A DNA stretch of 64,000 nt, taken from the NCBI GenBank assembly GCA_002429485.1, contig DIZX01000016.1, positions 14,889 to 78,888 of the forward strand, in the 5' to 3' direction. Position numbers and translations under genes: made by a program. Below are positions 1 to 13,403 of this stretch, in pieces. How positions within the stretch are numbered: the stretch's first letter is position 1; every line of letters begins with the position of its first letter. The notes under the pieces are model-generated. The model worked only from the letters and a program-made list of their open reading frames with translations. It was not told the DNA's origin and made no database searches. The stretch comes from Patescibacteria group bacterium UBA6017 (lineage in GTDB: Bacteria > Patescibacteriota > Saccharimonadia > UBA4664).

Positions 1-161
1 TCCGAGTGCGGGACTACCCCGATCTCGATCCGGATCTGGTGGGTGAGATCTTGAGCGTGCAGCACCAGTTCGCTGAGGACCGGGCAGAGGCCCGCAAACG
101 CACCGAGCAGCTCATTAACCGCTGGGCCGCCAGCCAACCCGATCCAAGGGCGACCGACTGA
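1..161 (+). CDS. 3' end of an upstream gene cut off by the window edge. Frame 3 is open from position 3 to the TGA at 159-161, which overlaps the ATG of the next gene (TGATG).
   Basis: Frame 3 is open from the window edge to 161. Its translated end is ...RVRDYPDLDPDLVGEILSVQHQFAEDRAEARKRTEQLINRWAASQPDPRATD*. The stop overlaps the start of the ATPase gene, which is typical of translational coupling. The high-GC codon usage matches the neighbouring genes. Confidence 0.4.
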   Translation, partial: RVRDYPDLDPDLVGEILSVQHQFAEDRAEARKRTEQLINRWAASQPDPRATD

Positions 162-2101
162 TGCTCACCCTTGATGGCCTGACGATCCAGGACTTCGGTC
201 CGTATCGCGGACGGCAAGAAATTAAATTCACTCGTGACCGCGGGGTATACATCTTGTACGGGCCGAATGGTCGCGGAAAGACGACGCTGCATAACGCCTT
301 TCGGTACGCGCTGTATGGCGAGATTCTTGGTCGCCGCCGAGCCGAGCAGGCCCGCGAGTTGGCCAACTCTGAGGCTCGCAAGCAGGCGGGCTTCGGCTCG
401 TTTGAGACGACGTTGGACTTTGGGCACCAGGGCGCCCGCTACCGACTGACCCGGCGGTACGACGAGCGCGAGAAACCCCACGAGTTGACGCTCCTGGAAC
501 GCGATGGCGTGCCTATGTCTCAGGATGACTCCGAGAAAGCGCTCCAGGTCATTGCGCCACACTCGGTAAGCCAGTTCTTCCTTTTCGACGGCGAGTTGCT
601 CCGTCAGTACGAAAACCTGCTTGACCGGGACAGTGAAGAAGGGGCTGCTCTGGAGCAATCGATCGAGCGCGTCCTCGGTATCCCGATCGTTGGCAATGCC
701 AAGGCTGACGTCACCGGAGTGTGGCGGCTCGCCGAGAAACAGATGGCCGAGCAGTACGCCGCCCACGATGAGACCCGGCGCATGGGCCTATCGCTCAATG
801 AGGCCCAGGAAGTACGCGCTCGGCTGCAGGAGGGTCACGACGAGATTGCCTTGCGGATCGATACAGCGAAGGAGCGTGTTGCCGAGCTAGAAGGCATGCT
901 GCGCGAGCAGCAGAAGGCCGAGCGTTTGCTAGGCAATCTCGATCGGCTCCGTACCCAGCAAGCGGACTTAGAACTTCGTGAAAAGGAGGGCGTCGATGCT
1001 CTGAACGAGCTGTCCGGCGATCTGTGGAAGGCGGTGCTGGCGCAGTCGGCAGCCGATCGGTTGGTGTCGGTCGACGCCGAGGTGCAGATAGCAGAGACTG
1101 ACCTGCGGTCCGTTGCAGCTGCGGTCAGAGACCTGGCACATCTGCAAGCCGAGCATGACTGCCCCGTCTGTCGCCGTGATGTACCCGAGGACCTACGCAA
1201 TTCGCTGATCGCAAGCTTGGAGGCAACTGCCTCGGACGCCCATCACGAGGCCGTTGACGCTCGCCTTGATCGGGCACGTAGTAAGCGCCGGACGCTGCAG
1301 GTCCTCGCTTCTGAGGACGCGCGCCTCGTCGTAGAGCGGGATCGGAACCTCCGCTCGCTGCGGTTGGAGCGGCAGGAAGTGCGGGAGGACATCGCAGGTC
1401 TCGAGCAGCAGTTGTCCGAGATCGGCGAGGACGAGTTGCGCGCCCTTACCGGTGAGCGAGATCAGCGGCAGGCGCAGATTCTGCGCGACAAGGAACGGCT
1501 TGAGGACAGTGGCGTCAAGCTCCGTGAGCAGGAGCTGGTGATAGAGGATCTGAAGCGCCGCTTGCGCAAGCAGCCCGTGCGGCCCGACCACACAATCGAG
1601 GTGAAGGACCAAGTGAGTCAGGCCTTGATGGGTCTCTTTGGCGGGGCGATTGACGCCTACCGCGTCAAGCTGCGTCGCCGGGTCGAAGAGCGGGCATCGG
1701 AAATCTTCCGCCAGCTCGCTTCCGAGCCGGACTACGTGGGGCTGCGCATCACTGATCGGTATGGGTTGGAGATCATTGACTCCGACGGCGAAGTGGTCAG
1801 GCGATCAGCCGGCTACGAGCACCTGGTTGCCCTGTCCCTGATCGCGGCCCTGCAGGACAGTGCGGCGGTGCGCGGCCCGGTGATCATGGACTACCCGTTT
1901 GGACGGCTTGACACCGACAACACGGCGCATGTCGTGGCAGCCCTGCCGCGTATGGCCCGCCAGGTCATTCTGCTGTCGTTCGATGGAGAGTTCGATCGCC
2001 ACGCGGCTCTGACTGCGCTCGGCAGCAATCTGGTGGCCGAGTATGAGCTAGAGCGCGTCACCTCGAAGCACACTCGCATCCAGCCTCGGAGGACCATCTG
2101 A
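161..2101 (+). CDS. SMC/Rad50-family ABC-type ATPase with a central CxxC zinc-hook and short coiled coils (DndD / LmuB / SbcC-like). Probably a defense-system ATPase.
   Basis: N-terminal Walker A GPNGRGKTT. FFLFDGELL motif. A long coiled-coil region rich in heptad E/R/L. Mid-protein hook HDCPVCRRDVPEDL. C-terminal signature-like SAGYEHLVALSLIAAL, Walker B PVIMDYPFGRLD and LLSFDGEF. TGATG overlap with the genes on both sides. Confidence 0.8.
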   Translation: MLTLDGLTIQDFGPYRGRQEIKFTRDRGVYILYGPNGRGKTTLHNAFRYALYGEILGRRRAEQARELANSEARKQAGFGSFETTLDFGHQGARYRLTRRYDEREKPHELTLLERDGVPMSQDDSEKALQVIAPHSVSQFFLFDGELLRQYENLLDRDSEEGAALEQSIERVLGIPIVGNAKADVTGVWRLAEKQMAEQYAAHDETRRMGLSLNEAQEVRARLQEGHDEIALRIDTAKERVAELEGMLREQQKAERLLGNLDRLRTQQADLELREKEGVDALNELSGDLWKAVLAQSAADRLVSVDAEVQIAETDLRSVAAAVRDLAHLQAEHDCPVCRRDVPEDLRNSLIASLEATASDAHHEAVDARLDRARSKRRTLQVLASEDARLVVERDRNLRSLRLERQEVREDIAGLEQQLSEIGEDELRALTGERDQRQAQILRDKERLEDSGVKLREQELVIEDLKRRLRKQPVRPDHTIEVKDQVSQALMGLFGGAIDAYRVKLRRRVEERASEIFRQLASEPDYVGLRITDRYGLEIIDSDGEVVRRSAGYEHLVALSLIAALQDSAAVRGPVIMDYPFGRLDTDNTAHVVAALPRMARQVILLSFDGEFDRHAALTALGSNLVAEYELERVTSKHTRIQPRRTI

Positions 2102-2484
2102 TGGCCGATCTCAAGAACATCGCTCTGACCATCGAGGCAACCCAGACTGCCACCGACCTCAAGCATTGGCTCGGCATCGTCGAGCAGATGGACCGCATCC
2201 GGCTAGGCTTCGCTTACGCGGTCAGGAACAGCCTGGACCTCACGCGCGATGACACTTTCGGCACCCGGGGCGGTAGTAACTACGACACCGGCGGCCTCGA
2301 CCAGGACGGCCTGATGGCCGAGACCGTAAAGATCTACTATCCGGACCCGGACGTCGCCGCCGAGCCCTACCGCGCCGTTGAGACGCTCATGAATAAGGGC
2401 CTGCGCCTACTCGGGGAGCATTGGCAGCAGGGCCTCATCGGCAGTGTCGGCGATTTGATGGCCAGCGCGGCCGACGCGGAATAG
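2101..2484 (+). CDS. Small acidic partner protein (127 aa) of the zinc-hook ATPase. Function unknown.
   Basis: Its start overlaps the ATPase stop codon (TGATG at 2099-2103). Codon usage matches the ATPase gene. A promoter-like AT-rich gap follows. No motif was recognised. Confidence 0.55.
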   Translation: MADLKNIALTIEATQTATDLKHWLGIVEQMDRIRLGFAYAVRNSLDLTRDDTFGTRGGSNYDTGGLDQDGLMAETVKIYYPDPDVAAEPYRAVETLMNKGLRLLGEHWQQGLIGSVGDLMASAADAE

Positions 2485-2624
2485 AGTCACTAATTGTGCG
2501 GATTTGTATCCAATAGCACAATCTTGACTTATCCACAGGCCTTTGAAAGAATAAGCGCTAGCGACATTGTCAGCCGGAACTACTCGCAACACTTTATCAC
2601 CGAGCTAATCGTAAGGGCGCACAC
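2485..2624 (+). promoter_or_regulatory. AT-rich intergenic region, probably holding the promoter of the four-gene Qat-like operon.
   Basis: This is the only AT-rich gap in a stretch that is otherwise about 62% GC. It contains TTGACT ... TATCCA-like hexamers and ends just before the ATG at 2625. Confidence 0.3.
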
Positions 2625-4409
2625 ATGACCGGCGAGACGAGAACTCCGGACCTTCACCTCTGGTCCGATGAACCGGCAGTAACAGATTTACTTTCCTTCA
2701 GCGCGATCGCTGACACGGTCGTTGACGCCCTCTTCGACGAGAACCTCAATCCTGTGGCGCTTGGCATTTCTGGCGCCTGGGGCAGTGGCAAGACCACCGT
2801 ACTCAACCTGATCGACCAGCGCATCAACGCTCGATCTACAGATCAGCAGACAATCGTTGTGGTCCGCGCCGACCCGTGGCGCTATGACCCGACCAAGGGC
2901 CCGAAGGAGAGCCTGATTGTTGCCGTACTGACGGCACTGCAGGGCGAATTTAAGGGCTCAGATGCGGCCCAGAAGTCCGCCGGTGAGGCGCTCAAGAGGC
3001 TTGCGAAGCGGGTCAACTGGTCGAAAGCCATCAAGATGGCAGCGACCACGGCCCTAACCGCGCAACTTCCTTCGCTGGATGCAGTTATGGGCTTGGTCAG
3101 TGACGAGCCAGAAACGCTCGGTTCCGAGAAGGGCATGGACCAGTTCCGCGAGGAGTTCGAGGCGCTCCTAAAAGAAGAGGCGCTCGCCCACGTCATGCAA
3201 GTGGTCGTCCTGGTGGACGATCTAGACCGCTGCTTGCCAGAAACCGTCGTCGAGACGCTAGAAGCCATCCGGTTGTTCTTGTCGGCGGAGAACATGTCAT
3301 TCGTCATCGCCGCGGATGAGGCCCGAGTTGCAGAGGCGATCCAGCAAAAGCTGCAGATGCCCGACCCGAGCGACGGCACGGAGAGCATTGCCAGCCTTTA
3401 CTTGCACAAGATTGTGCAGACGACGGTGCCGTTGCCAGCCCTCAGCTACTTCGATACTCGCGCCTACCTTTTCTTGCTGCTCGCCCGAATGCAGGTTGAA
3501 ACGGATGTGTTTGGCGCGCTGGTTACCTCGTGCGACGTTCTTCGTATCGACGCCGGAAGCCTTGACGACCTCGCGCTACCAGAGGGTATTGATCTCTCGT
3601 CTCCTATGGCCACAGCCTCAAGACTCACGCCTATTCTCTACGAAAAGTTCCAGGGCAATCCTCGACGCATCAAGCGCTTCATGAACGACCTATATGTTCG
3701 ACAGTCCGTGGCCGCGAGACGGGGTCACAAGCTAGAGCCCGACGCCATCGCCAAGTTGATGGTGATCGAGCGGCTATTCCCGGCTGACTTCGGCGTCCTA
3801 ATGGACTGGCTCGCGTCCGGCAATCTGCGCGGCAAACTAGATGCGCTGCAATTATTCACGAAGGGGGAGCAGCGCGAGAAGGGAAAAGCCGAAGAAACCG
3901 AATTTTCCGGCACGATGTTGCGCTGGGCCAAGCTCCCACCCGAATTCGATACGGCTATGGTCTCGGGATATCTGACACTGGCGGCTGCGTTCCAGGGCCG
4001 TCTCCTAGTAGATGAGTCGCTGTCAGAGTCTCTGCGCGACCTCGCCGCTGCACTGACCTCGAGTTCGCAGGTCGAACGCAGTTCAGTGAAGGACGGTGAG
4101 ATTAAGGCGCTCCCGCCCGGAGACGTCGCGGAGCTGCTCGCCCACTTAGGTAGACGCATGCGCGACGACTCTTCGATCCAGCTCCCGACGGTGAACGCGA
4201 TCGTATCGATCGCTACCCTGCACCCTAGCGAGTTGGGTCGAGCTCAGCGCGCACTGTTGATGTTGCCTGGCAACGATGTTCGGTCATCCAGTGTCCTTAT
4301 CTTCAAAGACCTGACCGCCGACTACGATGATGTGCTCGAGAGCTGGTCGAAGAGCTCGGACGCCACGACGAAGCGGGCGATCTTGTCCGTGCGCAGCAGG
4401 AAGGCCTGA
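2625..4409 (+). CDS. qatA: KAP-family P-loop NTPase, first gene of a Qat-type defense operon (QatA-like).
   Basis: Walker A GISGAWGSGKTT close to the N-terminus. Walker B-like VVVLVDDLDRC. Size of 594 aa. It is followed, with start/stop overlaps, by a Gly-rich protein, a QueC-like protein and a TatD-like protein. Confidence 0.75.
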   Translation: MTGETRTPDLHLWSDEPAVTDLLSFSAIADTVVDALFDENLNPVALGISGAWGSGKTTVLNLIDQRINARSTDQQTIVVVRADPWRYDPTKGPKESLIVAVLTALQGEFKGSDAAQKSAGEALKRLAKRVNWSKAIKMAATTALTAQLPSLDAVMGLVSDEPETLGSEKGMDQFREEFEALLKEEALAHVMQVVVLVDDLDRCLPETVVETLEAIRLFLSAENMSFVIAADEARVAEAIQQKLQMPDPSDGTESIASLYLHKIVQTTVPLPALSYFDTRAYLFLLLARMQVETDVFGALVTSCDVLRIDAGSLDDLALPEGIDLSSPMATASRLTPILYEKFQGNPRRIKRFMNDLYVRQSVAARRGHKLEPDAIAKLMVIERLFPADFGVLMDWLASGNLRGKLDALQLFTKGEQREKGKAEETEFSGTMLRWAKLPPEFDTAMVSGYLTLAAAFQGRLLVDESLSESLRDLAAALTSSSQVERSSVKDGEIKALPPGDVAELLAHLGRRMRDDSSIQLPTVNAIVSIATLHPSELGRAQRALLMLPGNDVRSSSVLIFKDLTADYDDVLESWSKSSDATTKRAILSVRSRKA

Positions 4410-5227
4410 TGGGAACCAGCGGAGCCTTCAAAGGAAGCGGCGGAAAGGATGCCGGCAGCCTCCGGGACGCCATCAGTGATTGGCTGGGAGGTGCCGACGA
4501 GGCTCAACAGGGTCAAGCCGACACGACCACAACAGACCAGCCGGCCGAACCCGACCACTTGAACCCCAACGCCCTCGCCCCCGCGGCTCGACTCTGGCTG
4601 CGAGGACCATCGGGCGGTTCCAAGGGTTCGGGAAGCGGAGGCGGGGGTGCAACCAGTGGGGGCGGTGGCTCCGCGGGTGGCGGTAGGTCATCTGGTGGTG
4701 TCCAGCGGACAGTCGGACGCGTTTCCGGACCTGCCGGGCGTGCAGGCGCACTGGCACGTGCCTTTGCGACGGGTGACAGCCCGGCGCTAGAAGAAGCGGG
4801 CCTTAACTACGATGAACTTCGCGCGCTCAATGATCCGCTTGAAGTGGGTCGCAAGATCACCGAGGTGGCTTTTGAAGGCCAACCTGACGGCAGTATCGAA
4901 GACGGCGAGGCACGCTTAATCGTAGCTGAGCTCGTCTCGTGGATCATGGATGCGCCTGACGGTGAGCGGCCCAGTCCCGACCAGATTGTCCGCTACTCAA
5001 TCGAACTTATGATTGCTAAAGCAGCCCTTACCGAAGTGGGCGATACGATCCGTAAGCAATCCGACCCCGTCAAGCGCCAAGAAGCTGAAGCAGAAGTGCG
5101 CCGCGGAGCCAAGGTCCTGGCAGGAAAGCTAGATCTTGATGGAGTAGGACCTAGTGCATCGGACATCGCTCGTAGTATCGAGACAAGTGTGCAGCAGCTG
5201 GTCGATATTCACGGGGACCCGACATGA
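4409..5227 (+). CDS. qatB: Glycine-rich protein of the Qat-type operon (QatB-like).
   Basis: Its ATG overlaps the qatA stop (ATGA). Starts MGTSGAFKGSGG and carries a long Gly/Ser tract (GGSKGSGSGGGGATSGGGGSAGGGRSSGG). The C-terminal half is helical. The next gene starts inside its last codons. Confidence 0.65.
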   Translation: MGTSGAFKGSGGKDAGSLRDAISDWLGGADEAQQGQADTTTTDQPAEPDHLNPNALAPAARLWLRGPSGGSKGSGSGGGGATSGGGGSAGGGRSSGGVQRTVGRVSGPAGRAGALARAFATGDSPALEEAGLNYDELRALNDPLEVGRKITEVAFEGQPDGSIEDGEARLIVAELVSWIMDAPDGERPSPDQIVRYSIELMIAKAALTEVGDTIRKQSDPVKRQEAEAEVRRGAKVLAGKLDLDGVGPSASDIARSIETSVQQLVDIHGDPT

Positions 5228-6501
5228 CCCGACTTGCTCTCGTCATGGATCGAACGCGGATACCGGCCGACACGGACGAGGTCTTCCTTTGGGATGGGGG
5301 AGCCGACCAAAGCTTCAAGACTGGGCTCACTCCCACACTTGCAGAACTAGGCGACGTACCCCCGCTCAATGCGGACGCTGTGAGGATCGCGCTTACAGCC
5401 TACGCGGCCGACCACAGCGTGAAGCGGGAACGTGGCGGTTCCAACTGGAATCGTCGGACTTTGGATCTGCTGGTACCGGTCAGTGATCCCGACGTCTGGG
5501 CAGGTGCGGCCACGGAGCTCATCGATGCTCTCAATTTCCTCACCGGTGACAATTGGAGCCTAAGATTCGTCCAGCATGAAGTTGAGGACAACCAGCACCA
5601 GCTTCTCGCCGATGCACCAGCCCGCGTCGTTTTACTCAGCGGGGGTGCCGATTCGGGAACGGGTGCGGTCATCTCTGCGAGTTCTCTTACACTCAACGAG
5701 TCGCACATTCTCGTATCTCATTCGAGTTCGGGCGCAACCAGCGGTGCGCAGAGAGCCGTCCATGACCGCCTCGAAGCTCTCTTCCCGGGAAAGCAGCCTA
5801 TCCATCGCCAAATCTTCATAGGTCGGGCCAAGAAACGAATCGATGGTACGAACTATCCAGACGAACCATCCAGCCGATCGAGATCATTCTTATTTCTGAC
5901 GCTTGGTCTGGCGGCCGCTGCCCGGTCGGGAGCCACCCTCTGGATCCCAGAGAACGGGTTTGCATCACTAAACCCTCCGCTCGGTCCTGAGCGACTGGGT
6001 GCACTCTCCACTAGGACAACGCACCCATGGTTCCTTTGGAGGCTCCAACAGGCCCTCTCGAAAGTCGGCGCGCACGCCGATCTCGAGAATCCCTTCCAAC
6101 TCGAGACGAAAGGCGAGATGTTTACGCGCGCCTCGGGTGTCCTCGGGAAAGATGGCGCGTCCGCGTTTCTCAGCACTACAAACTCGTGTTCTCACACCGA
6201 CCAGAACTACCAAGGCGTGCCGAGTGGAACTCACTGTGGTGTCTGCTTCGGATGCATCGTCAGGCGCGCTTCCTTCAAGGCCTCCGGGCTCCATGACCAG
6301 ACCCGGTACTTGAGTGCCGAGAGCCGCTACGCCACGTATACCGCGAGCCATTCCATCGTGGAAGCGGTCCGGGACTTCGTAACCCGTGGAATCGACGACG
6401 CCACTGTGCTTGCTATGCCCCTGCCTCCAGGCCTGCTAGCTGGCGGAGCAAAGGAGCTGTGCGTACGCGGCTTGAATGAAATGGAGTCCTACCTGGCATG
6501 A
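5224..6501 (+). CDS. qatC: QueC-like PP-loop ATPase (7-cyano-7-deazaguanine synthase family), QatC-like.
   Basis: PP-loop motif VVLLSGGADSGTGAV (SGGxDS). C-terminal Zn-binding-type cluster HCGVCFGCIVRR (CxxCxxC). Overlaps both of its neighbours. Confidence 0.8.
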   Translation: MTRLALVMDRTRIPADTDEVFLWDGGADQSFKTGLTPTLAELGDVPPLNADAVRIALTAYAADHSVKRERGGSNWNRRTLDLLVPVSDPDVWAGAATELIDALNFLTGDNWSLRFVQHEVEDNQHQLLADAPARVVLLSGGADSGTGAVISASSLTLNESHILVSHSSSGATSGAQRAVHDRLEALFPGKQPIHRQIFIGRAKKRIDGTNYPDEPSSRSRSFLFLTLGLAAAARSGATLWIPENGFASLNPPLGPERLGALSTRTTHPWFLWRLQQALSKVGAHADLENPFQLETKGEMFTRASGVLGKDGASAFLSTTNSCSHTDQNYQGVPSGTHCGVCFGCIVRRASFKASGLHDQTRYLSAESRYATYTASHSIVEAVRDFVTRGIDDATVLAMPLPPGLLAGGAKELCVRGLNEMESYLA

Positions 6502-7274
6502 AGTTGCCACCACTCGACACGCATGCACACGTGGCTCTCGAGGTCCCGACGCGGGACCTCGAGAGCCTCGGCGCAGCGGTGTTGATCGCTACGCGCAGCG
6601 CAGACGAGTTTGAGAGGGTTAGAGCACGGCATGACCTGGTGAGTGTTTGGGGGCTCGGGTGCCACCCTTCACTGGTTGGTGTCCAGCGATCGTTCGATAG
6701 CGAAAAATTTCGCGCCTTACTTGAATTCACACCATACGTCGCCGAAGTTGGGCTTGATGGGGATTCTCGGGTTCCGCTGGAAAATCAGACCGAAACGCTG
6801 AAAGCTATCCTTGATTGCGTTCGACAAATGCCCAGGGTCGTTTCACTGCACAGCTTCCGCGCGACCACGGACCTACTTAGGGTCCTTGATGTTCAGGATG
6901 GCACGTCGGCCCTCATCCTTCATTGGTGGCTTGGCACGAGGGAGGAGACGACGTGGGCGCTCGAGCTCGGCTGTTACTTCTCGGTCAACTACTCGATGAT
7001 TCGCTCGACGAGCCAATGGCGACAAATTCCACTCGACCGTTTACTTGTCGAGACCGACCATCCATCGGGAGACCGGTTCTCGAGCAGCCCGCGGCAGCCG
7101 GGCCGCGTTCAGGACGTCGAGCGGGCTCTCGGAAAACTCCACGGCCTAAGTGTTGAGAAGGTCCGACTCCAACTCTGGCAGAACTTCGCAGCACTGACAT
7201 CGGCGACCAGTACAGCGCAGATGCTGCCCATCCCCCTACGCAAGATGATCGCGTTCGCACAACAGTCCCAGTAG
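6498..7274 (+). CDS. qatD: TatD-family metal-dependent hydrolase/nuclease, QatD-like.
   Basis: N-terminal LDTHAHV (the TatD DxHxH metal site). HWWLGT motif. C-terminal LLVETDHPS (the TatD ETDxP motif). Its start overlaps the qatC stop. Confidence 0.8.
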   Translation: MKLPPLDTHAHVALEVPTRDLESLGAAVLIATRSADEFERVRARHDLVSVWGLGCHPSLVGVQRSFDSEKFRALLEFTPYVAEVGLDGDSRVPLENQTETLKAILDCVRQMPRVVSLHSFRATTDLLRVLDVQDGTSALILHWWLGTREETTWALELGCYFSVNYSMIRSTSQWRQIPLDRLLVETDHPSGDRFSSSPRQPGRVQDVERALGKLHGLSVEKVRLQLWQNFAALTSATSTAQMLPIPLRKMIAFAQQSQ

Positions 7275-7291
7275 ACACCTGATTGATTTTC

Positions 7292-7301
7292 GGGGGGGGG
7301 G
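7292..7301. repeat. Homopolymeric G10 tract in the gap between the convergent qatD and HTH genes.
   Basis: The sequence reads directly ttttcggggggggggtaacc. Confidence 0.9.
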
Positions 7302-7396
7302 TAACCTCTTGGCATTCTTAACCGGATACCCCCATGCCCAATCAAGAAGACATGTAGCTAGATCTGACGCGCCGAAGGCATGCGTCTACTTGATCT

Positions 7397-7846
7397 TCAT
7401 GTCCCTTTTTGATCGTGTGGTTGACGCATGACCACGCCCCGCCCACGTAACGCCCTCCAGACCGTGGCGCCAGCGACCTCGAACCGTTCGCCCAGCCGGG
7501 CCAGCGACCACCCCTCGCCGTAGAGGCGGACGGCCCGTTCGACCTGCCCTGGGTCGAGGCCTCGTTGTCGAGTCGGCACTCCGGCTCGCCTGATGATCTC
7601 GGAGACCGTCACTCGGTGGATGCCGTGGGCGGCGGCAAGATCCTTCATGTTCGCGCCCGCTACGTACGCCAGGACAATCTCGGTCTGATCGGCGTACGCC
7701 AGTCGGCGCTGTGGCGTGACGTTCAGGCGGACAGCTCCGGAGCTGCTCGGGCCCGGCAACTTCGCCCGGTCTGCCATTGCCTCGTCCGCAAGCGTGACTA
7801 TTTGGGCCGCGAGGGGGTTCGATAGACAACCCCTCAGTTCCACCAT
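7397..7846 (-). mobile_element. Helix-turn-helix protein resembling the N-terminal DNA-binding part of an IS transposase or resolvase (orfA-like). There is no catalytic DDE partner, so it is probably a mobile-element remnant at the edge of the island.
   Basis: Two HTH-like segments: NMKDLAAAHGIHRVTVSEIIRRAG and GWSLARLGERFEVAGATVWRALRGRG. No adjacent ORF with a DDE/recombinase domain. It sits exactly where GC content changes from ~62% to ~40%. Confidence 0.45.
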
Positions 7847-7925
7847 TTAGTTCTTTTTACTTTCTCCGAGTTTTCATTAGCTATTCATCTAGAGTCGTGA
7901 TGCTCTTTTTGGTATACTGCCAGGC

Positions 7926-8495
7926 ATGAATCTTATCTTCTCTACCGGTAACTCGGACAAATTCCATACAGCACATAGGGTACTTGAAGAAGCAGGCATA
8001 ACGCTTACACAAGAAAAACTCGATATAGACGAAATCCAGGCCGAGGAGGGCAATGCAATTATCCTAGACAAGTCTGCGAAGGCTTATAGCCTATTATGCC
8101 AGCCAGTAGTAGTCAGTGATGATTCGTGGTCAATCCCAGGCCTGGGCGGCTTCCCCGGACCTTACATGAAATCGATTAATGCGTGGTTCAAGGCGGAAGA
8201 TTTCGAACACCTCACTCGCCCGCTCGAAGACCGTCGAGTCTTTCTGACCAACCGGCTCGCCTACAATGATGGTCATCAGATAAAACTCTTTCACAATCAT
8301 CGTGAGGGAATTCTGCTCAAAGCAAGCCGCGGCCACAGTAGTCATCTGAGCCATCAATTTATTGTGATGGAGGGCGATAATGGGCTGAGTCAGGCCGAGG
8401 CTTACAATCAAGGCGTCGACCAAAACAACCTCGAAAGAGCCGCCATCTGGAGGCAACTAGAGGGTTGGCTAAGGTCTAACATAAAAGCTTCATAG
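7926..8495 (+). CDS. Non-canonical purine NTP pyrophosphatase (Ham1/ITPase/RdgB family).
   Basis: N-terminal STGNSDKFHTA (the TGNxxK motif). VVVSDDSW (the DDSG-like motif). About 190 aa. AT-rich codon usage. Confidence 0.7.
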   Translation: MNLIFSTGNSDKFHTAHRVLEEAGITLTQEKLDIDEIQAEEGNAIILDKSAKAYSLLCQPVVVSDDSWSIPGLGGFPGPYMKSINAWFKAEDFEHLTRPLEDRRVFLTNRLAYNDGHQIKLFHNHREGILLKASRGHSSHLSHQFIVMEGDNGLSQAEAYNQGVDQNNLERAAIWRQLEGWLRSNIKAS

Positions 8496-8504
8496 AACCT
8501 CTAA

Positions 8505-8543
8505 GCGAATCGCAGTGCTAACAGCGCCCACAATGCTCCACCA
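8505..8543. repeat. Copy 1 of a ~39-bp intergenic repeat ending in ATGCTCCACCA (tRNA-3'-end-like).
   Basis: gcgaatcgcagtgctaacagcgcccacaatgctccacca aligns with the copies at 9400-9438 and 9946-9984. Confidence 0.7.
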
Positions 8544-8598
8544 GTTTAGTTTCGTATATTTTTTCGTCCGGCGATAAGCACTTGGTATAATCGAAAGT

Positions 8599-9381
8599 AT
8601 GAATAATCCCGACTCAGACCTCCTTCAACTACTGAAGTCCGCACCAGAGCGCATCGGCTGGGATTTTAGTCGTATAAAAGATGACGTTGAGCCTCGCCCA
8701 TGGGATTATCTATCGATTGTCAAAGCCTGGTTATCTAAGTCTGACCACGTTCTAGACTTAGATACAGGTGGGGGTGAAAAATTTATTGCCTTAGCCGACT
8801 GCTACAAGTCTGGCTTTGCAACCGACTCGTCCGCCGAGCAGATTCAAGTTTGCAATCAAAATCTAGCCGTATCATTACGGAATAATATTCAGTTTGTGCA
8901 GTCCGACGCCCGCAAACTTACTGCGTTTGATGATGCCTCTTTCGATAAAGTCATCAATCGTCACGGCGCATTCTCATTGGCTGAGGCTTATAGAGTTCTC
9001 AAGCCAGGTGGGATATTTATTACTCAACAAGTTGGCGAAAAGAATACCTTGAACGTTTACGGCGCCTTTGGGTACTCGGACGCCACCGCCTATTGGCGTT
9101 CACGCGATGTCGAGACGGAGACTTGGTCGAGCATTGTAGAAGGGCTGATAAAGTCGGATTTCGAAGTGGTAGCGAAAGGCGAGTACAATTTAGATTATTA
9201 CTTCCTTGGCAACGAGAGTTTTATTTTTTGGCTGAAAGCGATCGAGATACCGTATCCTTTCGAACCGGAACAGCACGTTGAAATCATAAAAAAGTTCATT
9301 GCTGAAAACCAAACTGAACGGGGCATTAAAACCAATGAGCAGAGGCATCTGCTCATTTTACGGAAACCTAGGCATAACTAG
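8599..9381 (+). CDS. Class I SAM-dependent methyltransferase.
   Basis: Motif I VLDLDTGGGE. Acidic motif II. LKPGGIF motif. A -10-like TATAAT lies 13 nt upstream. Confidence 0.7.
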   Translation: MNNPDSDLLQLLKSAPERIGWDFSRIKDDVEPRPWDYLSIVKAWLSKSDHVLDLDTGGGEKFIALADCYKSGFATDSSAEQIQVCNQNLAVSLRNNIQFVQSDARKLTAFDDASFDKVINRHGAFSLAEAYRVLKPGGIFITQQVGEKNTLNVYGAFGYSDATAYWRSRDVETETWSSIVEGLIKSDFEVVAKGEYNLDYYFLGNESFIFWLKAIEIPYPFEPEQHVEIIKKFIAENQTERGIKTNEQRHLLILRKPRHN

Positions 9382-9399
9382 CCCAACCCCTGCATCTGA

Positions 9400-9438
9400 G
9401 CGTATCGTAGTTCGAACAACGTTAACCATGCTCCACCA
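9400..9438. repeat. Copy 2 of the ~39-bp repeat ending in ATGCTCCACCA.
   Basis: gcgtatcgtagttcgaacaacgttaaccatgctccacca is about 80% identical to copy 3. Confidence 0.7.
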
Positions 9439-9482
9439 TATAGCCATATTTACTGCGTTTCAGCGCAATATAGCATTACATC

Positions 9483-9502
9483 AAGAGCCGTGAGGCTCTT
9501 TT
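9483..9502 (+). terminator. Hairpin GAGCC-GTGA-GGCTC followed by a T-run. Intrinsic terminator module, shared with the copy at 9997-10022.
   Basis: aagagccgtgaggctcttttggtat: perfect 5-6 bp GC-rich stem, GTGA loop, T-run. Confidence 0.55.
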
Positions 9503-9551
9503 GGTATATCTCAATTTTAGAATCGAAAAATAACTTTGCTAGAATAAATGC

Positions 9552-9896
9552 ATGAAGTTTGTAAATCAATCCCAAGCAGTCGAATTCCGTAACGGTGATA
9601 CCTGTGTCGCATTAGAGTATCAGCTAAATGACGCCGATATCAACGGAGCGGTAATTCGACTATCTGGGCGCTATCCAGAGCAAGGTTTTGCTGTTAATGA
9701 AGTATCGAAAGAACTGGTGTATGTCGTCAAAGGCCAAGGGACGCTTACCGTTGGTGAGACTAGTACTCGTTTAAGTGAAGGTGACATGGCATTGCTTATG
9801 CCTGGCGAGAAGTATTTCTTCGATGGTGAGCTTGTAATGATGATGCCCTGCGCCCCAGCCTGGACGCCGCAGCAGCATAAACTGGTTAGCGATTAA
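9552..9896 (+). CDS. Cupin-domain protein.
   Basis: Small beta-barrel protein with a Gx5HxHx...E-like region (RLSGRYPEQGFAVNE ... LMPGEKYFFDGE). 114 aa. Confidence 0.5.
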   Translation: MKFVNQSQAVEFRNGDTCVALEYQLNDADINGAVIRLSGRYPEQGFAVNEVSKELVYVVKGQGTLTVGETSTRLSEGDMALLMPGEKYFFDGELVMMMPCAPAWTPQQHKLVSD

Positions 9897-9945
9897 TCAC
9901 AGACCGAGGATTCAAAGCATAGCCGACCTCAACCCCCGCTTCGGC

Positions 9946-9984
9946 GCGCATCTTGGTTCGAACAATGCTAATAATGCTCCACCA
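9946..9984. repeat. Copy 3 of the ~39-bp repeat ending in ATGCTCCACCA.
   Basis: gcgcatcttggttcgaacaatgctaataatgctccacca. Contains GGTTCGAAC (T-loop-like) and ends in CTCCACCA. Confidence 0.7.
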
Positions 9985-9996
9985 GCACTAATTAAT

Positions 9997-10022
9997 AAAA
10001 AAGAGCCGTGAGGCTCTTTTTT
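9997..10022. terminator. Bidirectional intrinsic terminator between the convergent cupin gene and guaB. Same hairpin sequence as at 9483.
   Basis: aaaaaagagccgtgaggctctttttt: A-run, GC stem, T-run. Lies between the cupin stop (9896) and the guaB stop (10077). Confidence 0.65.
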
Positions 10023-10076
10023 ATTAAATCGCAGGATTTAAGACCGCAGTTAGTAATGCTCAATAAGCCTGGCCGC

Positions 10077-11591
10077 CTAAGTGCGAACCCCAGATCCGGA
10101 CTCATCCTGGACGATATTGCTCGTACCGCCTTCTACGATTGACTGCCCCGAAACCAGCGTCAGGACTGCATTCTCGGTAAACTCTTTCAAATTCAATGAG
10201 CCTAGGTTGCACATAGTGGAGCGCAGTTTTCCGATAGTTACGCTCAGCATGTCTTTCACCGGCCCGATTACGGGTACATACCCATCAATTCCTTCTTCGA
10301 ACAGCAGGCCGTCGACGGTCTTGCCTTCGCTGTAGCGCTGCCAGTTGCGAGCTCGGTTCGATCCCTCGCCCCAATATGGCTTGAAGATGCTGTTCTTGAT
10401 GGTCACTTTCTGCGTTGGGCTCTCGTCGCTCATCGCGAAGTATCGCCCCATCATCACAAAGTCAGCGCCCATCGCCAGAGCAATAATAATCTGCGTGTCA
10501 TTAGCCAGCCCGCCATCCGAGCAGATTGGAATATAAATCCCTGTCTCTTCGAGGTATCGGTTGCGTTCAGCCACAACGTCCAATAGCGCGGAGGCCTGGC
10601 CCCGGCCAATGCCTTTTTGTTCGCGGGTAATGCAGATGGATCCGCCGCCGATGCCAACCTTGACGAAGTCGACTTTGGCTTCTTCTGCCAGATATCGAAA
10701 ACCCTCTGCCGAGACAACGTTGCCGGCGCCTATAACAATCGAATCGCCGTACTTCTCCCGAGCCCAGAGTGCGGCATCGCGTTGGTATTCAGAGAAACCA
10801 TCCGAGGAATCAAATGCAACAATATCTACTCCTGCCTCCATCAGCGCCGGCAGTCGGACTTCGTAGTCGTGAGTATTTATACCTGCGGCCGCTACTAACC
10901 TCTTTTCGTTGTCGAGCAGCTCAAGCGGGTTGTTCTTGTGGGCAACATAATCTTTCTTGAACACAATCGAGTTCAGCTTGCCGTCTTTTTCCAAAATCGG
11001 CAGAGCTTCTTTTTTGTGTTTATGGAGCAATTCATTTGCCGATCTGAGCCCAATTCCTATTTCGCCGAAAATTACCTTTTCTTTTGGCGTCATGTGCGAG
11101 CTGACTATCGAGCTAAGATCGTCTTCAAACTCCCAGAAATCGTTATCAGTAATAATTCCCTCGAACATGCCGGTGGGCGAGCCGTCGCTGGTGACCGCAA
11201 CCGTTGAGTGCCCTTCGCGGCGCATGAGATCCAGCAATTCACGCAAGGTTGCGCCTGGTTTGACGTTTAAGGTGCTCTTAACGAACCCGGCTTTGTGCAA
11301 TTTAATCTTGGAGATCATCGCGGCCTGGGCTTCGATTGTCTGCGAACAGAATACAAAAGCCGCCCCGCCCTGTCGGGCCAGGGCTACGCCCATATCAACC
11401 CCGGAGACGGCCTGCATGCTGGCAGATACCACTGGAAGATTCAACTGGAGCCGACTCGTCTCGCCCTTCTTAAATTTGGCAACGGGCGCCAAGAGGGAGA
11501 CATTCGAGGTCATATGAATCTTTTTTGTGAGCCGGGGGATTAAAAGATACTCAGAAAACGTTCGGGAAAAACCATCAAGTACATGTGACAT
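10077..11591 (-). CDS. guaB: Inosine-5'-monophosphate dehydrogenase.
   Basis: Catalytic loop GIGGGSICITREQKGIGRGQ. CBS-domain insert. N-terminal TFSEYLLIP. The ORF-track start at 11729 looks over-extended. The Met at 11591 (MSHVLDGFSRTF...) matches the conserved IMPDH N-terminus. Confidence 0.9.
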   Translation of the reverse strand: MSHVLDGFSRTFSEYLLIPRLTKKIHMTSNVSLLAPVAKFKKGETSRLQLNLPVVSASMQAVSGVDMGVALARQGGAAFVFCSQTIEAQAAMISKIKLHKAGFVKSTLNVKPGATLRELLDLMRREGHSTVAVTSDGSPTGMFEGIITDNDFWEFEDDLSSIVSSHMTPKEKVIFGEIGIGLRSANELLHKHKKEALPILEKDGKLNSIVFKKDYVAHKNNPLELLDNEKRLVAAAGINTHDYEVRLPALMEAGVDIVAFDSSDGFSEYQRDAALWAREKYGDSIVIGAGNVVSAEGFRYLAEEAKVDFVKVGIGGGSICITREQKGIGRGQASALLDVVAERNRYLEETGIYIPICSDGGLANDTQIIIALAMGADFVMMGRYFAMSDESPTQKVTIKNSIFKPYWGEGSNRARNWQRYSEGKTVDGLLFEEGIDGYVPVIGPVKDMLSVTIGKLRSTMCNLGSLNLKEFTENAVLTLVSGQSIVEGGTSNIVQDESGSGVRT

Positions 11592-12329: not shown

Positions 12330-12731
12330 ATGCGTAAGTTTGTCTACCAGAAATTCATACGGGATAAGATCCTCGACCACATGCTCGGCCAGGGCGAGCA
12401 GCCCGAGCACCATATTTTGAATGACCAAGATTATCTCCTTGAGTTAAAGAACAAAATTCTCGAAGAAGGTTCCGAAATCACGCTTGATGATCACGATAAA
12501 CTGCTCGAGGAGCTAGCTGACTTGCAGGAAGTCATAGATTGTATGCTCAATGCTATCGGCGAGAACTCTCATGCAGTCAAAGAGATTCAGGATAAGAAAA
12601 ATTCAAAACTCGGCTCGTTTGGTAAAAGAGTCTTCATCGACACCGTAGCGATACCGGATGGCAATGAGTGGATCAAGTATCTTGAGTCCAACCCCGATCG
12701 TTATCCTGAAATAAAGGGAGATATAAATTAG
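12330..12731 (+). CDS. MazG/HisE-like nucleoside triphosphate pyrophosphohydrolase-fold protein.
   Basis: EExxE-type helical motif LLEELADLQEVIDCML. Small, all-alpha. Low-GC codon usage. Confidence 0.45.
   Translation: MRKFVYQKFIRDKILDHMLGQGEQPEHHILNDQDYLLELKNKILEEGSEITLDDHDKLLEELADLQEVIDCMLNAIGENSHAVKEIQDKKNSKLGSFGKRVFIDTVAIPDGNEWIKYLESNPDRYPEIKGDIN

Positions 12732-13327: not shown

Positions 13328-13403
<76 letters not shown>

What the first reader, a model, noticed from the sequence alone, without database searches (positions are those of the whole stretch)
7830..10025. Array of three AT-rich single-gene cassettes, each followed by the same tRNA-3'-end-like 39-bp repeat and a shared GAGCCGTGAGGCTC terminator hairpin
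Three small genes lie head-to-tail in a ~40% GC segment: Ham1/ITPase (7926-8495), a SAM-methyltransferase (8599-9381) and a cupin (9552-9896). Each is followed within 10-50 nt by an imperfect ~39-bp direct repeat, GCGnATCnnnGTTCGAACAAnGnTAAnnATGCTCCACCA, at 8505-8543, 9400-9438 and 9946-9984. The repeat contains a GGTTCGAAC T-loop-like core and ends in CTCCACCA, like the 3' end of the tRNA-Ala in this window. A weaker fourth trace, gttccaccatttag, lies at 7836-7852. Copies 2 and 3 are each followed by the identical hairpin AAGAGCCGTGAGGCTCTTTT (9483-9502, 9997-10022). A degenerate version, agagtcgtgatgctcttttt, precedes the first cassette at 7891-7910. After each hairpin comes ggtata(c/t/a), which could serve as a -10 element for the next gene. 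The pattern suggests serial insertion of small cassettes at a tRNA-like attachment sequence, or an integron-like cassette array with a conserved 3' recombination/terminator module.
Basis: seen in the sequence. Interest (0 to 1): 0.6.

Follow-up and report, generated by a model that had tools for sequence, protein, structure and literature searches.

The report
Gene-cassette array at a tRNA-Ala site
Three small genes in this tiny-genome symbiont (Candidatus Saccharimonadia) are separate mobile single-gene cassettes, each inserted at the last 9-12 bases of a tRNA-Ala gene. The locus works like an integron-style gene reservoir, but no recombinase gene was found anywhere near it.

Summary
Three exact ATGCTCCACCA copies lie behind three consecutive genes (0.85 matches expected by chance, allowing one mismatch), inside a longer repeat unit I call R.

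Related Saccharimonadia contigs show what R is. It is a junction made of three parts:
- a conserved, non-tRNA arm of about 58 nt (R-left);
- a 9-12-nt core, (AAT)GCTCCACCA, identical to the 3' end of tRNA-Ala genes;
- R-right, holding a spacer, a terminator hairpin and a leaderless promoter.

In relatives, intact tRNA-Ala(CGC) or tRNA-Ala(GGC) genes head arrays of up to about ten such units, and the tRNA is followed directly by R-right. One relative has four cassettes between tRNA-Ala(GGC) and the flank that directly follows this tRNA in another relative, where the site is empty.

The window's methyltransferase and cupin cassettes recur in other genomes between different neighbours. For the methyltransferase cassette, homology breaks exactly at the core.

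The window's fourth trace (7811-7845) is the tRNA-side junction. It is now cut off by a 13-kb high-GC defence island.

R has no tRNA fold and no attC-like hairpin, and it occurs nowhere outside the arrays. No integrase lies within about -28 to +54 kb.

Verdict: serial site-specific insertion at a tRNA 3' end. This is a known kind, in an unusual miniature form without its own integrase.

The parts
7811..7845 (+). R0, the tRNA-side junction (attL type). It is a remnant of a tRNA-Ala T-arm and acceptor, GAGGGGGTTCGATAGACAACCCCTCAG, plus the core GTTCCACCA (1 mismatch). The tRNA body upstream is missing, and a high-GC island abuts here.
   Evidence: Alignment to tRNA-Ala(CGC) of relative L022 scores 33, against a null maximum of 28-32. 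It is not similar to R-left of R1-R3. The sequence after it is homologous to R2-right (82% over 39 columns, 0 of 1000 shuffles).
7846..8543 (+). Cassette 1 (Ham1/ITPase-like). R-right runs 7846-7925, with hairpin 7891-7906 and TGGTATACT at 7910-7918, 7 nt before the ATG. The ORF is 7926-8495. The variant R-left is 8498-8534 and the core 8535-8543.
   Evidence: The variant R-left (GTGCTAACAGCGCnCACA) recurs in L150 at 1856-1886, 97% identical.
8544..9438 (+). Cassette 2 (SAM-methyltransferase, 260 aa). R-right runs 8544-8598, without a hairpin and with TGGTATAAT at 8583-8591, 7 nt before the ATG. The ORF is 8599-9381 and its stop codon lies inside R-left. R-left is 9371-9429 and the core 9430-9438.
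   Evidence: The same cassette, 96% identical, is in L147 (5095-6038) between other neighbours. Homology ends exactly at the core on the right. On the left it begins at the core, and the R-left before it differs.
9439..9984 (+). Cassette 3 (cupin, 114 aa). R-right runs 9439-9551, with hairpin 9484-9499, TGGTATATC at 9502-9510, and TGCTAGAAT at 9537-9545, 6 nt before the ATG. The ORF is 9552-9896. R-left is 9916-9975 and the core 9976-9984.
   Evidence: Its R-right is 92-94% identical to the DNA that directly follows the true tRNA-Ala(GGC) in L147 and tRNA-Ala(CGC) in L150. The cupin block 9462-9983 is 87% identical to L150 2303-2823, which lies between other genes.
9985..10076 (+). Terminal flank of the array, with a two-way terminator hairpin (10002-10017; full stem 9992-10027) shared with the convergent IMPDH gene. 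There may be a decayed further core at 10051-10068.
   Evidence: It is conserved (79% over 91 columns) next to IMPDH in relative L109, behind a different gene. The decayed core is family D3.
1..7810 (.). Right part of a high-GC (about 61%) defence island of about 13 kb that abuts R0. It carries PbeC, QatA, QatC, QatD and an HTH gene (7397-7777, minus strand). It is not part of the cassette system but cuts off the head of the array.
   Evidence: Its left end carries no tRNA or R-like sequence.
13328..13403 (+). tRNA-Ala(GGC), an unoccupied potential target in this genome. The same gene heads a cassette array in L147.

Best explanation
The region is the tail of a cassette array anchored at a tRNA-Ala gene in a Candidatus Saccharimonadia genome.

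Each cassette is a core-to-core segment of 0.55-0.9 kb. It holds R-right (spacer, terminator, leaderless TGnTAnnnT promoter), one ORF, R-left (a conserved arm of about 58 nt) and the core (AAT)GCTCCACCA.

Cassettes enter by site-specific recombination between their own R-left/core/R-right site (attP-like) and the identical 9-12-nt 3' end of a tRNA-Ala gene, or an earlier core.
- The tRNA stays intact and gains R-right as its new flank.
- Older cassettes are pushed outward.
- Every internal R is R-left of one cassette joined at the core to R-right of the next.

Shown here: the anatomy, the breakpoints at the core, an occupied and an empty site, and cassette reshuffling between genomes.

Inferred: a circular intermediate, and a recombinase acting in trans, most likely a tyrosine integrase that prefers the tRNA 3' end. 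R-left and R-right would be its binding arms.

In this window the head tRNA survives only as R0. Either the neighbouring high-GC island removed the 5' part of the tRNA, or R0 is that island's own right-end junction.
For: 1. Organism and robustness. The closest genome is a Ca. Saccharimonadia MAG, and the junctions of the array recur in several assemblies.

2. R family. There are 17 profile hits at E of 0.02 or lower, and every one lies in an array in the window, L109, L147, L150 or L151. The only other hit, in L075, has E = 0.1. All array hits are on the tRNA strand. None is found in the other roughly 61 kb of the window, in L108, or in other Saccharimonadia and outgroup loci; 1.49 Mb was searched.

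3. Heads of arrays.
- In L150, tRNA-Ala(CGC) at 688-763 is followed directly by R-right.
- In L147 and L148, tRNA-Ala(GGC) at 7284-7359 is followed by the same R-right, 92% identical to window 9430-9507.

4. Occupied against empty site. In L109, tRNA-Ala(GGC) is followed by ATGCACTTATGCTTAAAC and a hairpin. In L147 that flank lies 2.7 kb away, after four cassettes, joined to an R-left at the core (16 of the first 17 nt identical).

5. Same cassette, different neighbours.
- MT260 is 96% identical over 944 nt between the window and L147. Similarity stops exactly after CCACCA on the right, and starts at the core on the left.
- The cupin cassette is 87% identical between the window and L150.

6. 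Same junction, different gene. L109 has another gene in front of the R3 and IMPDH junction.

7. Core identity. The L109 tRNA-Ala(GGC) ends in AATGCTCCACCA, the same 12 nt as the R core.

8. R0. It is tRNA-like on the left and R-right on the right.

9. Foreign composition. The array is 46% G+C against 54.6% for the rest of the window.

10. Promoters. They sit 6-7 nt before the ATG in 8 cassette genes.
Against: - No integrase or other recombinase is seen in the window, in L014 or L108 (reaching 20.9 kb left of the window), or in L147, L150 or L109.
- No circular or excised form was observed.
- The window itself has no intact head tRNA.
- Relative L022 has tRNA-Ala(CGC) and the same IMPDH, with three other genes between them, but no R. 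It has only the hairpin.
- Only four or five related genomes or contigs could be read. All are metagenome assemblies, and L150 contains a scaffold gap.
- The left boundary of the cupin block in L150 falls inside R-right, not at a core.
Confidence: 0.8

Rival explanations
1. There is no dedicated recombinase. R units serve as portable homology, and cassettes are swapped by ordinary homologous recombination after natural transformation. The arrays would grow by unequal crossing-over.
For: R-left and R-right are long enough (about 60-110 nt) and similar enough (74-94%) to support recombination. No integrase was found near any array. From my own knowledge, Saccharibacteria are naturally transformable.
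Against: Every junction that could be resolved breaks at the 9-12-nt core. This holds even where the two sides share nothing else: a tRNA body against R-left, or the native tRNA flank against R-right. Homologous recombination cannot place a cassette between a tRNA and its native flank using 9-12 nt of identity, and it would scatter the breakpoints.
Confidence: 0.1
2. It is a true integron: attC-bounded cassettes captured by an IntI integrase.
For: The array holds single-ORF cassettes, mostly in one orientation, each followed by a similar repeat.
Against: Neither strand of R folds into an attC-like hairpin. Single-stranded DNA energies are -3 to -10 kcal/mol, with z-scores between -1.2 and +1.3. 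By inspection of the sequences there are no GTTRRRY / RYYYAAC core sites. No intI was found. The cassettes carry their own promoters and terminators. The target is the end of a tRNA gene.
Confidence: 0.02
3. R is a regulatory or RNA element of the 3' UTR, not a recombination scar. It could be a species-specific terminator module, or a tRNA-like tail recognised by RNase P, RNase Z or the CCA-adding enzyme.
For: It always lies just behind an ORF, on the coding strand of most cassettes, ends in CCACCA, and is followed by a terminator. The hairpin itself is a generic terminator.
Against: There is no Rfam, tRNA or tmRNA match, even with relaxed thresholds. The consensus fold of 12 copies is -2.2 kcal/mol with no compensatory pair. 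R is absent behind core genes. R also follows cassettes whose ORF is on the other strand (L147 106 aa, L150 87 aa). This view cannot explain the occupied and empty sites.
Confidence: 0.04
4. The repeats are decayed scars of ordinary large islands or prophages that once integrated at tRNA-Ala. Each island would have been whittled down to one gene, so no cassette-level mobility exists.
For: Tandem partial-tRNA repeats left by successive integrations are well known (PMC3146451; 10.1101/2020.12.28.424599).
Against: Units are uniformly small and complete, with promoter, one ORF, R-left and core. About 15 were seen in three genomes. R-left is conserved over about 58 nt that is not tRNA. Identical cassettes recur, core to core, in different arrays. 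No integrase fragments lie between them.
Confidence: 0.04

Closest known systems
Tandem genomic islands at tRNA or tmRNA genes. Examples are the Dehalococcoides ssrA-specific islands (PMC3146451) and the Prochlorococcus tRNA-anchored islands and tycheposons (bioRxiv 10.1101/2020.12.28.424599).
   Same: Integration happens at the 3' end of a tRNA-type gene. The gene is kept intact. A direct repeat of its end marks each boundary. Newer insertions push older ones outward. The region varies between close strains. tRNA-Ala(GGC) is also one of the Prochlorococcus targets.
   Different: Those islands are multi-gene elements, and most encode their own integrase (DsiB in Dehalococcoides; the tycheposon tyrosine recombinase). 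Here the units are 0.55-0.9 kb with one ORF and no integrase. The repeat shares only 9-12 nt with the tRNA but about 130 nt of conserved non-tRNA arms.
Cis-mobilizable elements (CIMEs) and accretion of integrative elements. The term is used in PMC3146451; beyond that, the concept is from my own knowledge.
   Same: Both are bounded by att sites, carry no recombination or transfer genes, and lie in tandem with other elements at the same site.
   Different: CIMEs are regarded as deletion derivatives of larger elements and are few per site. Here there are up to about ten uniform single-gene units per 11 kb, each with its own expression signals.
Chromosomal integron cassette arrays (attC / IntI).
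   Same: The functional logic is the same: an array of single-ORF cassettes, each ending in a family of similar recombination repeats, with cassette content differing between close relatives, acting as a gene reservoir.
   Different: There is no attC hairpin, no intI or attI, and no shared Pc promoter. Each cassette has its own promoter and terminator, and the insertion point is the end of a tRNA gene.
REP/BIME-type intergenic repeats and shared terminators.
   Same: Both are short repeats behind genes that include a G+C-rich hairpin and a T run.
   Different: R is confined to tRNA-Ala-anchored arrays and has no conserved fold apart from the separate terminator.

Membership tests
Site-specific integrative elements targeting the 3' end of a tRNA gene (tandem arrays) | An intact target tRNA gene at one end of the array, joined at its 3' end to element DNA | tested here: inconclusive
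   Met in relatives: L150 tRNA-Ala(CGC), and L147/L148 tRNA-Ala(GGC), each followed directly by R-right. Not met in the window itself, where only the 35-nt remnant R0 is present.
Site-specific integrative elements targeting the 3' end of a tRNA gene (tandem arrays) | A direct repeat of the tRNA 3' end at every distal boundary, on the same strand | tested here: met
   The core (AAT)GCTCCACCA lies at all boundaries. It matches 9 nt of tRNA-Ala(CGC) and tRNA-Ala(GGC), and 12 nt of the L109 tRNA-Ala(GGC).
Site-specific integrative elements targeting the 3' end of a tRNA gene (tandem arrays) | Empty and occupied versions of the same site in related genomes | tested here: met
   In L109 the tRNA-Ala(GGC) is followed by its native flank. 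In L147 the same tRNA and flank are separated by four cassettes (2.7 kb).
Site-specific integrative elements targeting the 3' end of a tRNA gene (tandem arrays) | An integrase encoded by the element | tested here: not met
   No recombinase domain was found in any cassette, in the window, or in L014, L108, L147 or L150.
Tycheposons | A lineage-specific site-specific integrase at one end, plus hallmark mobility and replication genes (definition in 10.1101/2020.12.28.424599) | tested here: not met
   The cassettes hold one cargo ORF only.
Integron | An attC site: an imperfect palindrome that folds as single-stranded DNA, with R''/L''/L'/R' boxes | tested here: not met
   Single-stranded DNA folds of both strands are no better than shuffles. 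The consensus fold is -2.2 kcal/mol.
Integron | An intI gene with attI and a Pc promoter next to the array | tested here: not met
   No tyrosine recombinase was found from about -28.7 kb to +54 kb of the array. The head of the array is a tRNA gene.
Integron | An array of single-ORF cassettes whose content differs between relatives | tested here: met
   Window, L109, L147 and L150.
Cis-mobilizable elements (CIME) | Flanked by functional att sites, with no integration or transfer genes | tested here: inconclusive
   The anatomy fits. Whether the att sites function, or are mobilised by a helper, could not be tested.
tRNA, tmRNA or tRNA-like RNA | A cloverleaf or acceptor/T-arm fold detectable by a covariance model | tested here: not met
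   There is no Rfam hit at E up to 10 in a 2.3-kb search. ARAGORN finds nothing at 100% or 90% of its default thresholds; at lower settings it lists many weak calls across the region, none on the + strand ending at a core. No covariation is seen. Outside the 12-nt core, R is not significantly tRNA-like.
Dispersed intergenic repeat or species-wide terminator motif | Copies behind many unrelated core genes across the genome | tested here: not met
   No R copies lie outside the arrays in 1.49 Mb, including 61 kb of this window and 21 kb to its left. The whole genome could not be searched.

The most novel reading that the evidence does not exclude
Some Saccharimonadia (Candidate Phyla Radiation, genomes of about 1 Mb) may run a dedicated cassette system that is integron-like but unrelated to integrons. 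In it, tRNA-Ala genes would serve as the docking site. Single genes would travel as minimal elements made only of an attP-like site, each with a built-in terminator and leaderless promoter. A recombinase encoded elsewhere would shuffle them. The result would be a strain-variable reservoir, rich in nucleotide-salvage and small-molecule enzymes: nucleoside phosphorylase, ITPase, phosphoribosyltransferase, kinase-like proteins, HD hydrolase and methyltransferases.
Probability: 0.45. Interest if true: 0.78.

Novelty: new variant of a known kind. Interest (0 to 1): 0.6.

Why it matters
Episymbiotic CPR bacteria have tiny genomes. How they gain and exchange accessory genes is poorly understood.

This locus shows a concrete route with defined sequences: a 9-12-nt target at the end of tRNA-Ala, conserved arms of about 58 nt and about 55-110 nt, and cassettes of one gene that carry their own expression signals.

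If a trans-acting recombinase is behind it, three things follow:
- it would be a second, independent invention of the integron principle;
- it would explain strain-level variation in nucleotide-salvage capacity;
- it would offer a natural docking site for genetic tools in Saccharibacteria.

If it is only an unusually tidy record of classical tRNA-site integrations, it is still a clear example in a phylum where I found none described in the literature library searched.

Tried and rejected
- **Metagenome pattern scan.** Scanning metagenome contigs for GTTCGAACAAN{6,10}ATGCTCCACCA gave 5 hits, all apparently chance matches inside coding sequence (4 distinct sequences). That collection does not hold the window's own sample, nor L109's, so the result says nothing about how common R is.\n- **Viral scans.** Searches for the R box, the junction with R-right, and the MT260 protein found nothing. 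The hairpin alone gave 35 unrelated contigs, so it is a generic terminator.\n- **IMPDH as a synteny anchor.** Relatives at 82-85% identity carry IMPDH in unrelated places. Only the relatives at 96% identity were useful (L022, L109).\n- **Concatenated query.** Joining the three cassette proteins into one query for the search for homologous proteins returned only distant methyltransferase fusions, and not even the query proteins themselves. The larger family shows that position simply varies. The firm breakpoint is the core.\n- **Left end of the high-GC island.** It has no R or tRNA-like sequence.\n- **Other tRNAs.** There are no 3'-end repeats of tRNA-Ala(GGC) or tRNA-Gln(CTG) elsewhere in the window.


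Full report
**1. The observation**

The three ORFs are a Ham1-like protein (7926-8495), a SAM-methyltransferase (8599-9381) and a cupin (9552-9896).

- ATGCTCCACCA occurs exactly three times on the + strand, at 8533, 9428 and 9974. Allowing one mismatch there are 6 matches against 0.85 expected, and none of 100 shuffles reached 6.
- The repeat finder extends the repeat to 55 nt.
- The hairpin AGAGCCGTGAGGCTCT is exact at 9484 and 10002, and has two changes at 7891.
- The segment has 46% G+C. The left flank has 60.7% and the rest of the window 54.6%.
- The same arrangement is present in JGI, ENA and Logan assemblies, so it is not an assembly artefact.

**2. The organism and the left flank**

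The IMPDH gene next to the array is 96% identical to that of a Candidatus Saccharimonadia MAG (L022).

To the left of 7810 lies a 60-65% G+C island of about 13 kb. It carries a type II methyltransferase, PbeA, PbeC, QatA, QatC, QatD and an HTH gene. Its left end has no tRNA or repeat.

Further left come Saccharimonadia-type genes, and then a 65-75% G+C stretch with conjugation-type genes.

No recombinase domain was found from about -28.7 kb to +54 kb of the array.

**3. What the repeat is not**

- It matches no Rfam family, even in a 2.3-kb search at E up to 10. ARAGORN finds nothing at 100% or 90% of its default thresholds; at lower settings it lists many weak calls across the region, none on the + strand ending at a core.
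- Neither strand folds better than shuffles as DNA or RNA, apart from the separate terminator hairpin.
- Twelve distinct copies give a consensus fold of -2.2 kcal/mol with no compensatory pair.
- The hairpin alone is a generic terminator, found in 35 unrelated viral contigs.

**4. The relatives that explain it**

*L109* (IMPDH 96% identical). It has the same last repeat and hairpin next to IMPDH, but a different gene in front.

*L147 and L148* (two assemblies, 99.97% identical to each other). I reached these through a variant of the methyltransferase that is at least 90% identical.
- They share the window's right-hand core genes.
- They carry ten hits to the R profile (seven full-length, three partial or diverged) in 11 kb, all on the + strand, on both sides of tRNA-Ala(GGC).

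*L150*, reached through a cupin variant. It starts with tRNA-Ala(CGC), followed by an array that includes the cupin cassette between other genes. It ends at the homologue of the window gene 12330-12731.

A profile of the repeat finds copies only in these arrays within 1.49 Mb.

**5. Anatomy**

The family consensus is GGCATA(A/G)CTA(A/G)CCCCAACCCCCGC.TC.G.GCGTATCG.AGTTCGAACAACGTTAA.AATGCTCCACCA.

Alignments of junctions show three parts:
- **R-left**, about 58 nt, which travels with the gene upstream.
- **The core**, GCTCCACCA. It extends to AATGCTCCACCA in most copies and is identical to the last 9-12 nt of tRNA-Ala genes. The L109 tRNA-Ala(GGC) ends in exactly these 12 nt.
- **R-right**, which travels with the gene downstream and holds a spacer, usually a terminator hairpin, and a promoter.

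Outside the core, R-left is not significantly similar to tRNA-Ala; only the heptamer GTTCGAA matches.

The DNA directly after the true tRNA-Ala(GGC) of L147 and the true tRNA-Ala(CGC) of L150 is the same R-right that follows the core at window 9438, at 92-94% identity.

**6. Evidence for insertion at the core**

(a) *Occupied and empty site.* In L109, tRNA-Ala(GGC) is followed by ATGCACTTATGCTTAAAC and a hairpin. In L147 this flank lies 2.7 kb downstream of the tRNA, after four cassettes, and is joined to an R-left at the core.

(b) *The methyltransferase cassette.* Window 8544-9438 is 96% identical to L147 5142-6038.
- To the right, similarity stops immediately after CCACCA.
- To the left, the R-left differs: a variant type in the window and the standard type in L147. 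Everything after the core is the same.

(c) *The cupin cassette.* It lies between the methyltransferase and IMPDH in the window, and between two other genes in L150.

(d) *The variant R-left.* The variant behind the window's Ham1 gene recurs behind an unrelated gene in L150, 97% identical over 31 nt.

**7. The fourth trace**

Window 7811-7845 (R0) is not a member of the R-left family. It aligns to the T-arm and acceptor end of tRNA-Ala(CGC) with a score of 33, against a null maximum of 28-32. Its right side is R-right.

It is therefore the tRNA-side junction of the array. In L022 and L150, an intact tRNA-Ala(CGC) stands at the equivalent place. Here the body of the tRNA is gone and the high-GC island begins.

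I could not tell whether the island truncated the gene, or whether R0 is the island's own right-end junction with the intact tRNA far to the left.

**8. Expression design**

Eight cassette genes have an extended -10 element (TGnTAnnnT) ending 6-7 nt before the ATG, which fits leaderless transcripts. TGGTATA occurs in the window only in the array.

R-left begins with stop codons in two frames. The methyltransferase ORF ends inside it, and the ORF called for the L109 gene reads through a TAG-to-TAT change.

The terminator directly after the core would also end the tRNA transcript. That last point is an inference.

**9. Cargo**

- Window: ITPase-like protein, methyltransferase, cupin.
- L147: nucleoside phosphorylase, epimerase, a 715-aa protein, a kinase-like AAA_18 protein, and several small unknown proteins.
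- L150: small unknown proteins within the array. An inositol monophosphatase and a phosphoribosyltransferase follow the last R and are not bounded by one.
- L022: a GT2 glycosyltransferase, an HD hydrolase and a methyltransferase stand at the same place, but they are not flanked by R.

**10. Mechanism and standing**

The best-supported reading is serial site-specific recombination between an attP-like R on a cassette and the tRNA-Ala 3' end.
- Shown: anatomy, breakpoints, and occupied and empty sites.
- Inferred: a circular intermediate and a recombinase acting in trans.

Tandem integration at tRNA or tmRNA ends is well known, as in the Dehalococcoides ssrA islands (PMC3146451) and the Prochlorococcus islands and tycheposons (10.1101/2020.12.28.424599).

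What is unusual here:
- the size of the unit (one gene);
- the lack of any integrase in cis;
- the long conserved non-tRNA arms;
- the built-in terminator and promoter;
- the host, a CPR bacterium.

Four searches of the paper library found nothing describing this in Saccharibacteria or Patescibacteria.

I file it as a new variant of a known kind. It works like an integron but fails every defining test for one.

Noticed in passing
window 1-7810, continuing left to L108 15550 (window about -5300): A 60-65% G+C island of about 13 kb sits in a roughly 55% G+C Saccharimonadia genome. It carries a type II methyltransferase, PbeA and PbeC, QatA, an unmatched gene in the QatB position, QatC and QatD, plus a two-HTH gene (7397-7777, minus strand). 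No integrase and no flanking repeat are present at its left end.
   Followed up: partly
L108 1-8000 (about 13-21 kb left of the window): This stretch has 65-75% G+C and carries a VirD4/TrwB-like protein (757 aa), a Replic_Relax protein, a DNA methyltransferase and an HTH plus ImmA-type peptidase pair. The best plasmid matches of the 757-aa protein are Embleya and Streptomyces (42-44% aa). This looks like DNA acquired from actinobacterial hosts by an episymbiont.
   Followed up: partly
window 10077-11591 (minus strand): Outside Saccharimonadia, the closest relatives of this IMPDH are from Fibrobacterota (about 77% aa). In Saccharimonadia relatives at 82-85% identity the gene lies in unrelated contexts. 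It was probably acquired horizontally and relocated.
   Followed up: partly
L111 7833-8729: A second example of a small island at a tRNA with no integrase. tRNA-Gln(TTG) is followed by a 73-aa gene and a Fic gene, then a 24-nt repeat of the tRNA 3' end (23 of 24 identical), directly next to IMPDH.
   Followed up: partly
window 7910-7925, 8583-8598, 9537-9551; also L147, L150, L022: Extended -10 elements (TGnTAnnnT) end 6-7 nt before the ATG of many cassette genes, with no Shine-Dalgarno sequence. This is a leaderless design.
   Followed up: partly
window 9371-9381; L109 (reverse strand) about 150-215: R-left begins with stop codons in two frames (ATAACTAG or ATAGCTAA). The methyltransferase ORF ends inside the repeat. 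In L109, a TAG-to-TAT change lets the ORF called there run on to a TAA further inside R.
   Followed up: no
window 10051-10068: TAGTAATGCTCAATAAGC resembles the end of R (TAATAATGCTCCACCAGC, 78%). It may be a decayed older core 64 nt beyond the last one, next to the IMPDH stop codon.
   Followed up: no
window 9484-9499 and 10002-10017; IMG/VR loci L112-L146: The terminator AGAGCC-GNGA-GGCTCT-TTTT occurs in 35 unrelated viral contigs. Identical hairpins are therefore weak evidence of common origin.
   Followed up: yes
window 7397-7846 (minus strand): The longest ORF of the HTH gene starts at 7846 and overlaps R0. One assembly's gene call (126 aa, in L012) puts the start at 7777, and I take that as the likelier start.
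   Followed up: no
L022 4260-6864: This close relative has tRNA-Ala(CGC), three other genes (GT2 glycosyltransferase, HD hydrolase, methyltransferase) and the same IMPDH. It has no R copy, only the hairpin with TGGTATAGT. The hotspot is also filled by DNA that lacks the repeat.
   Followed up: partly
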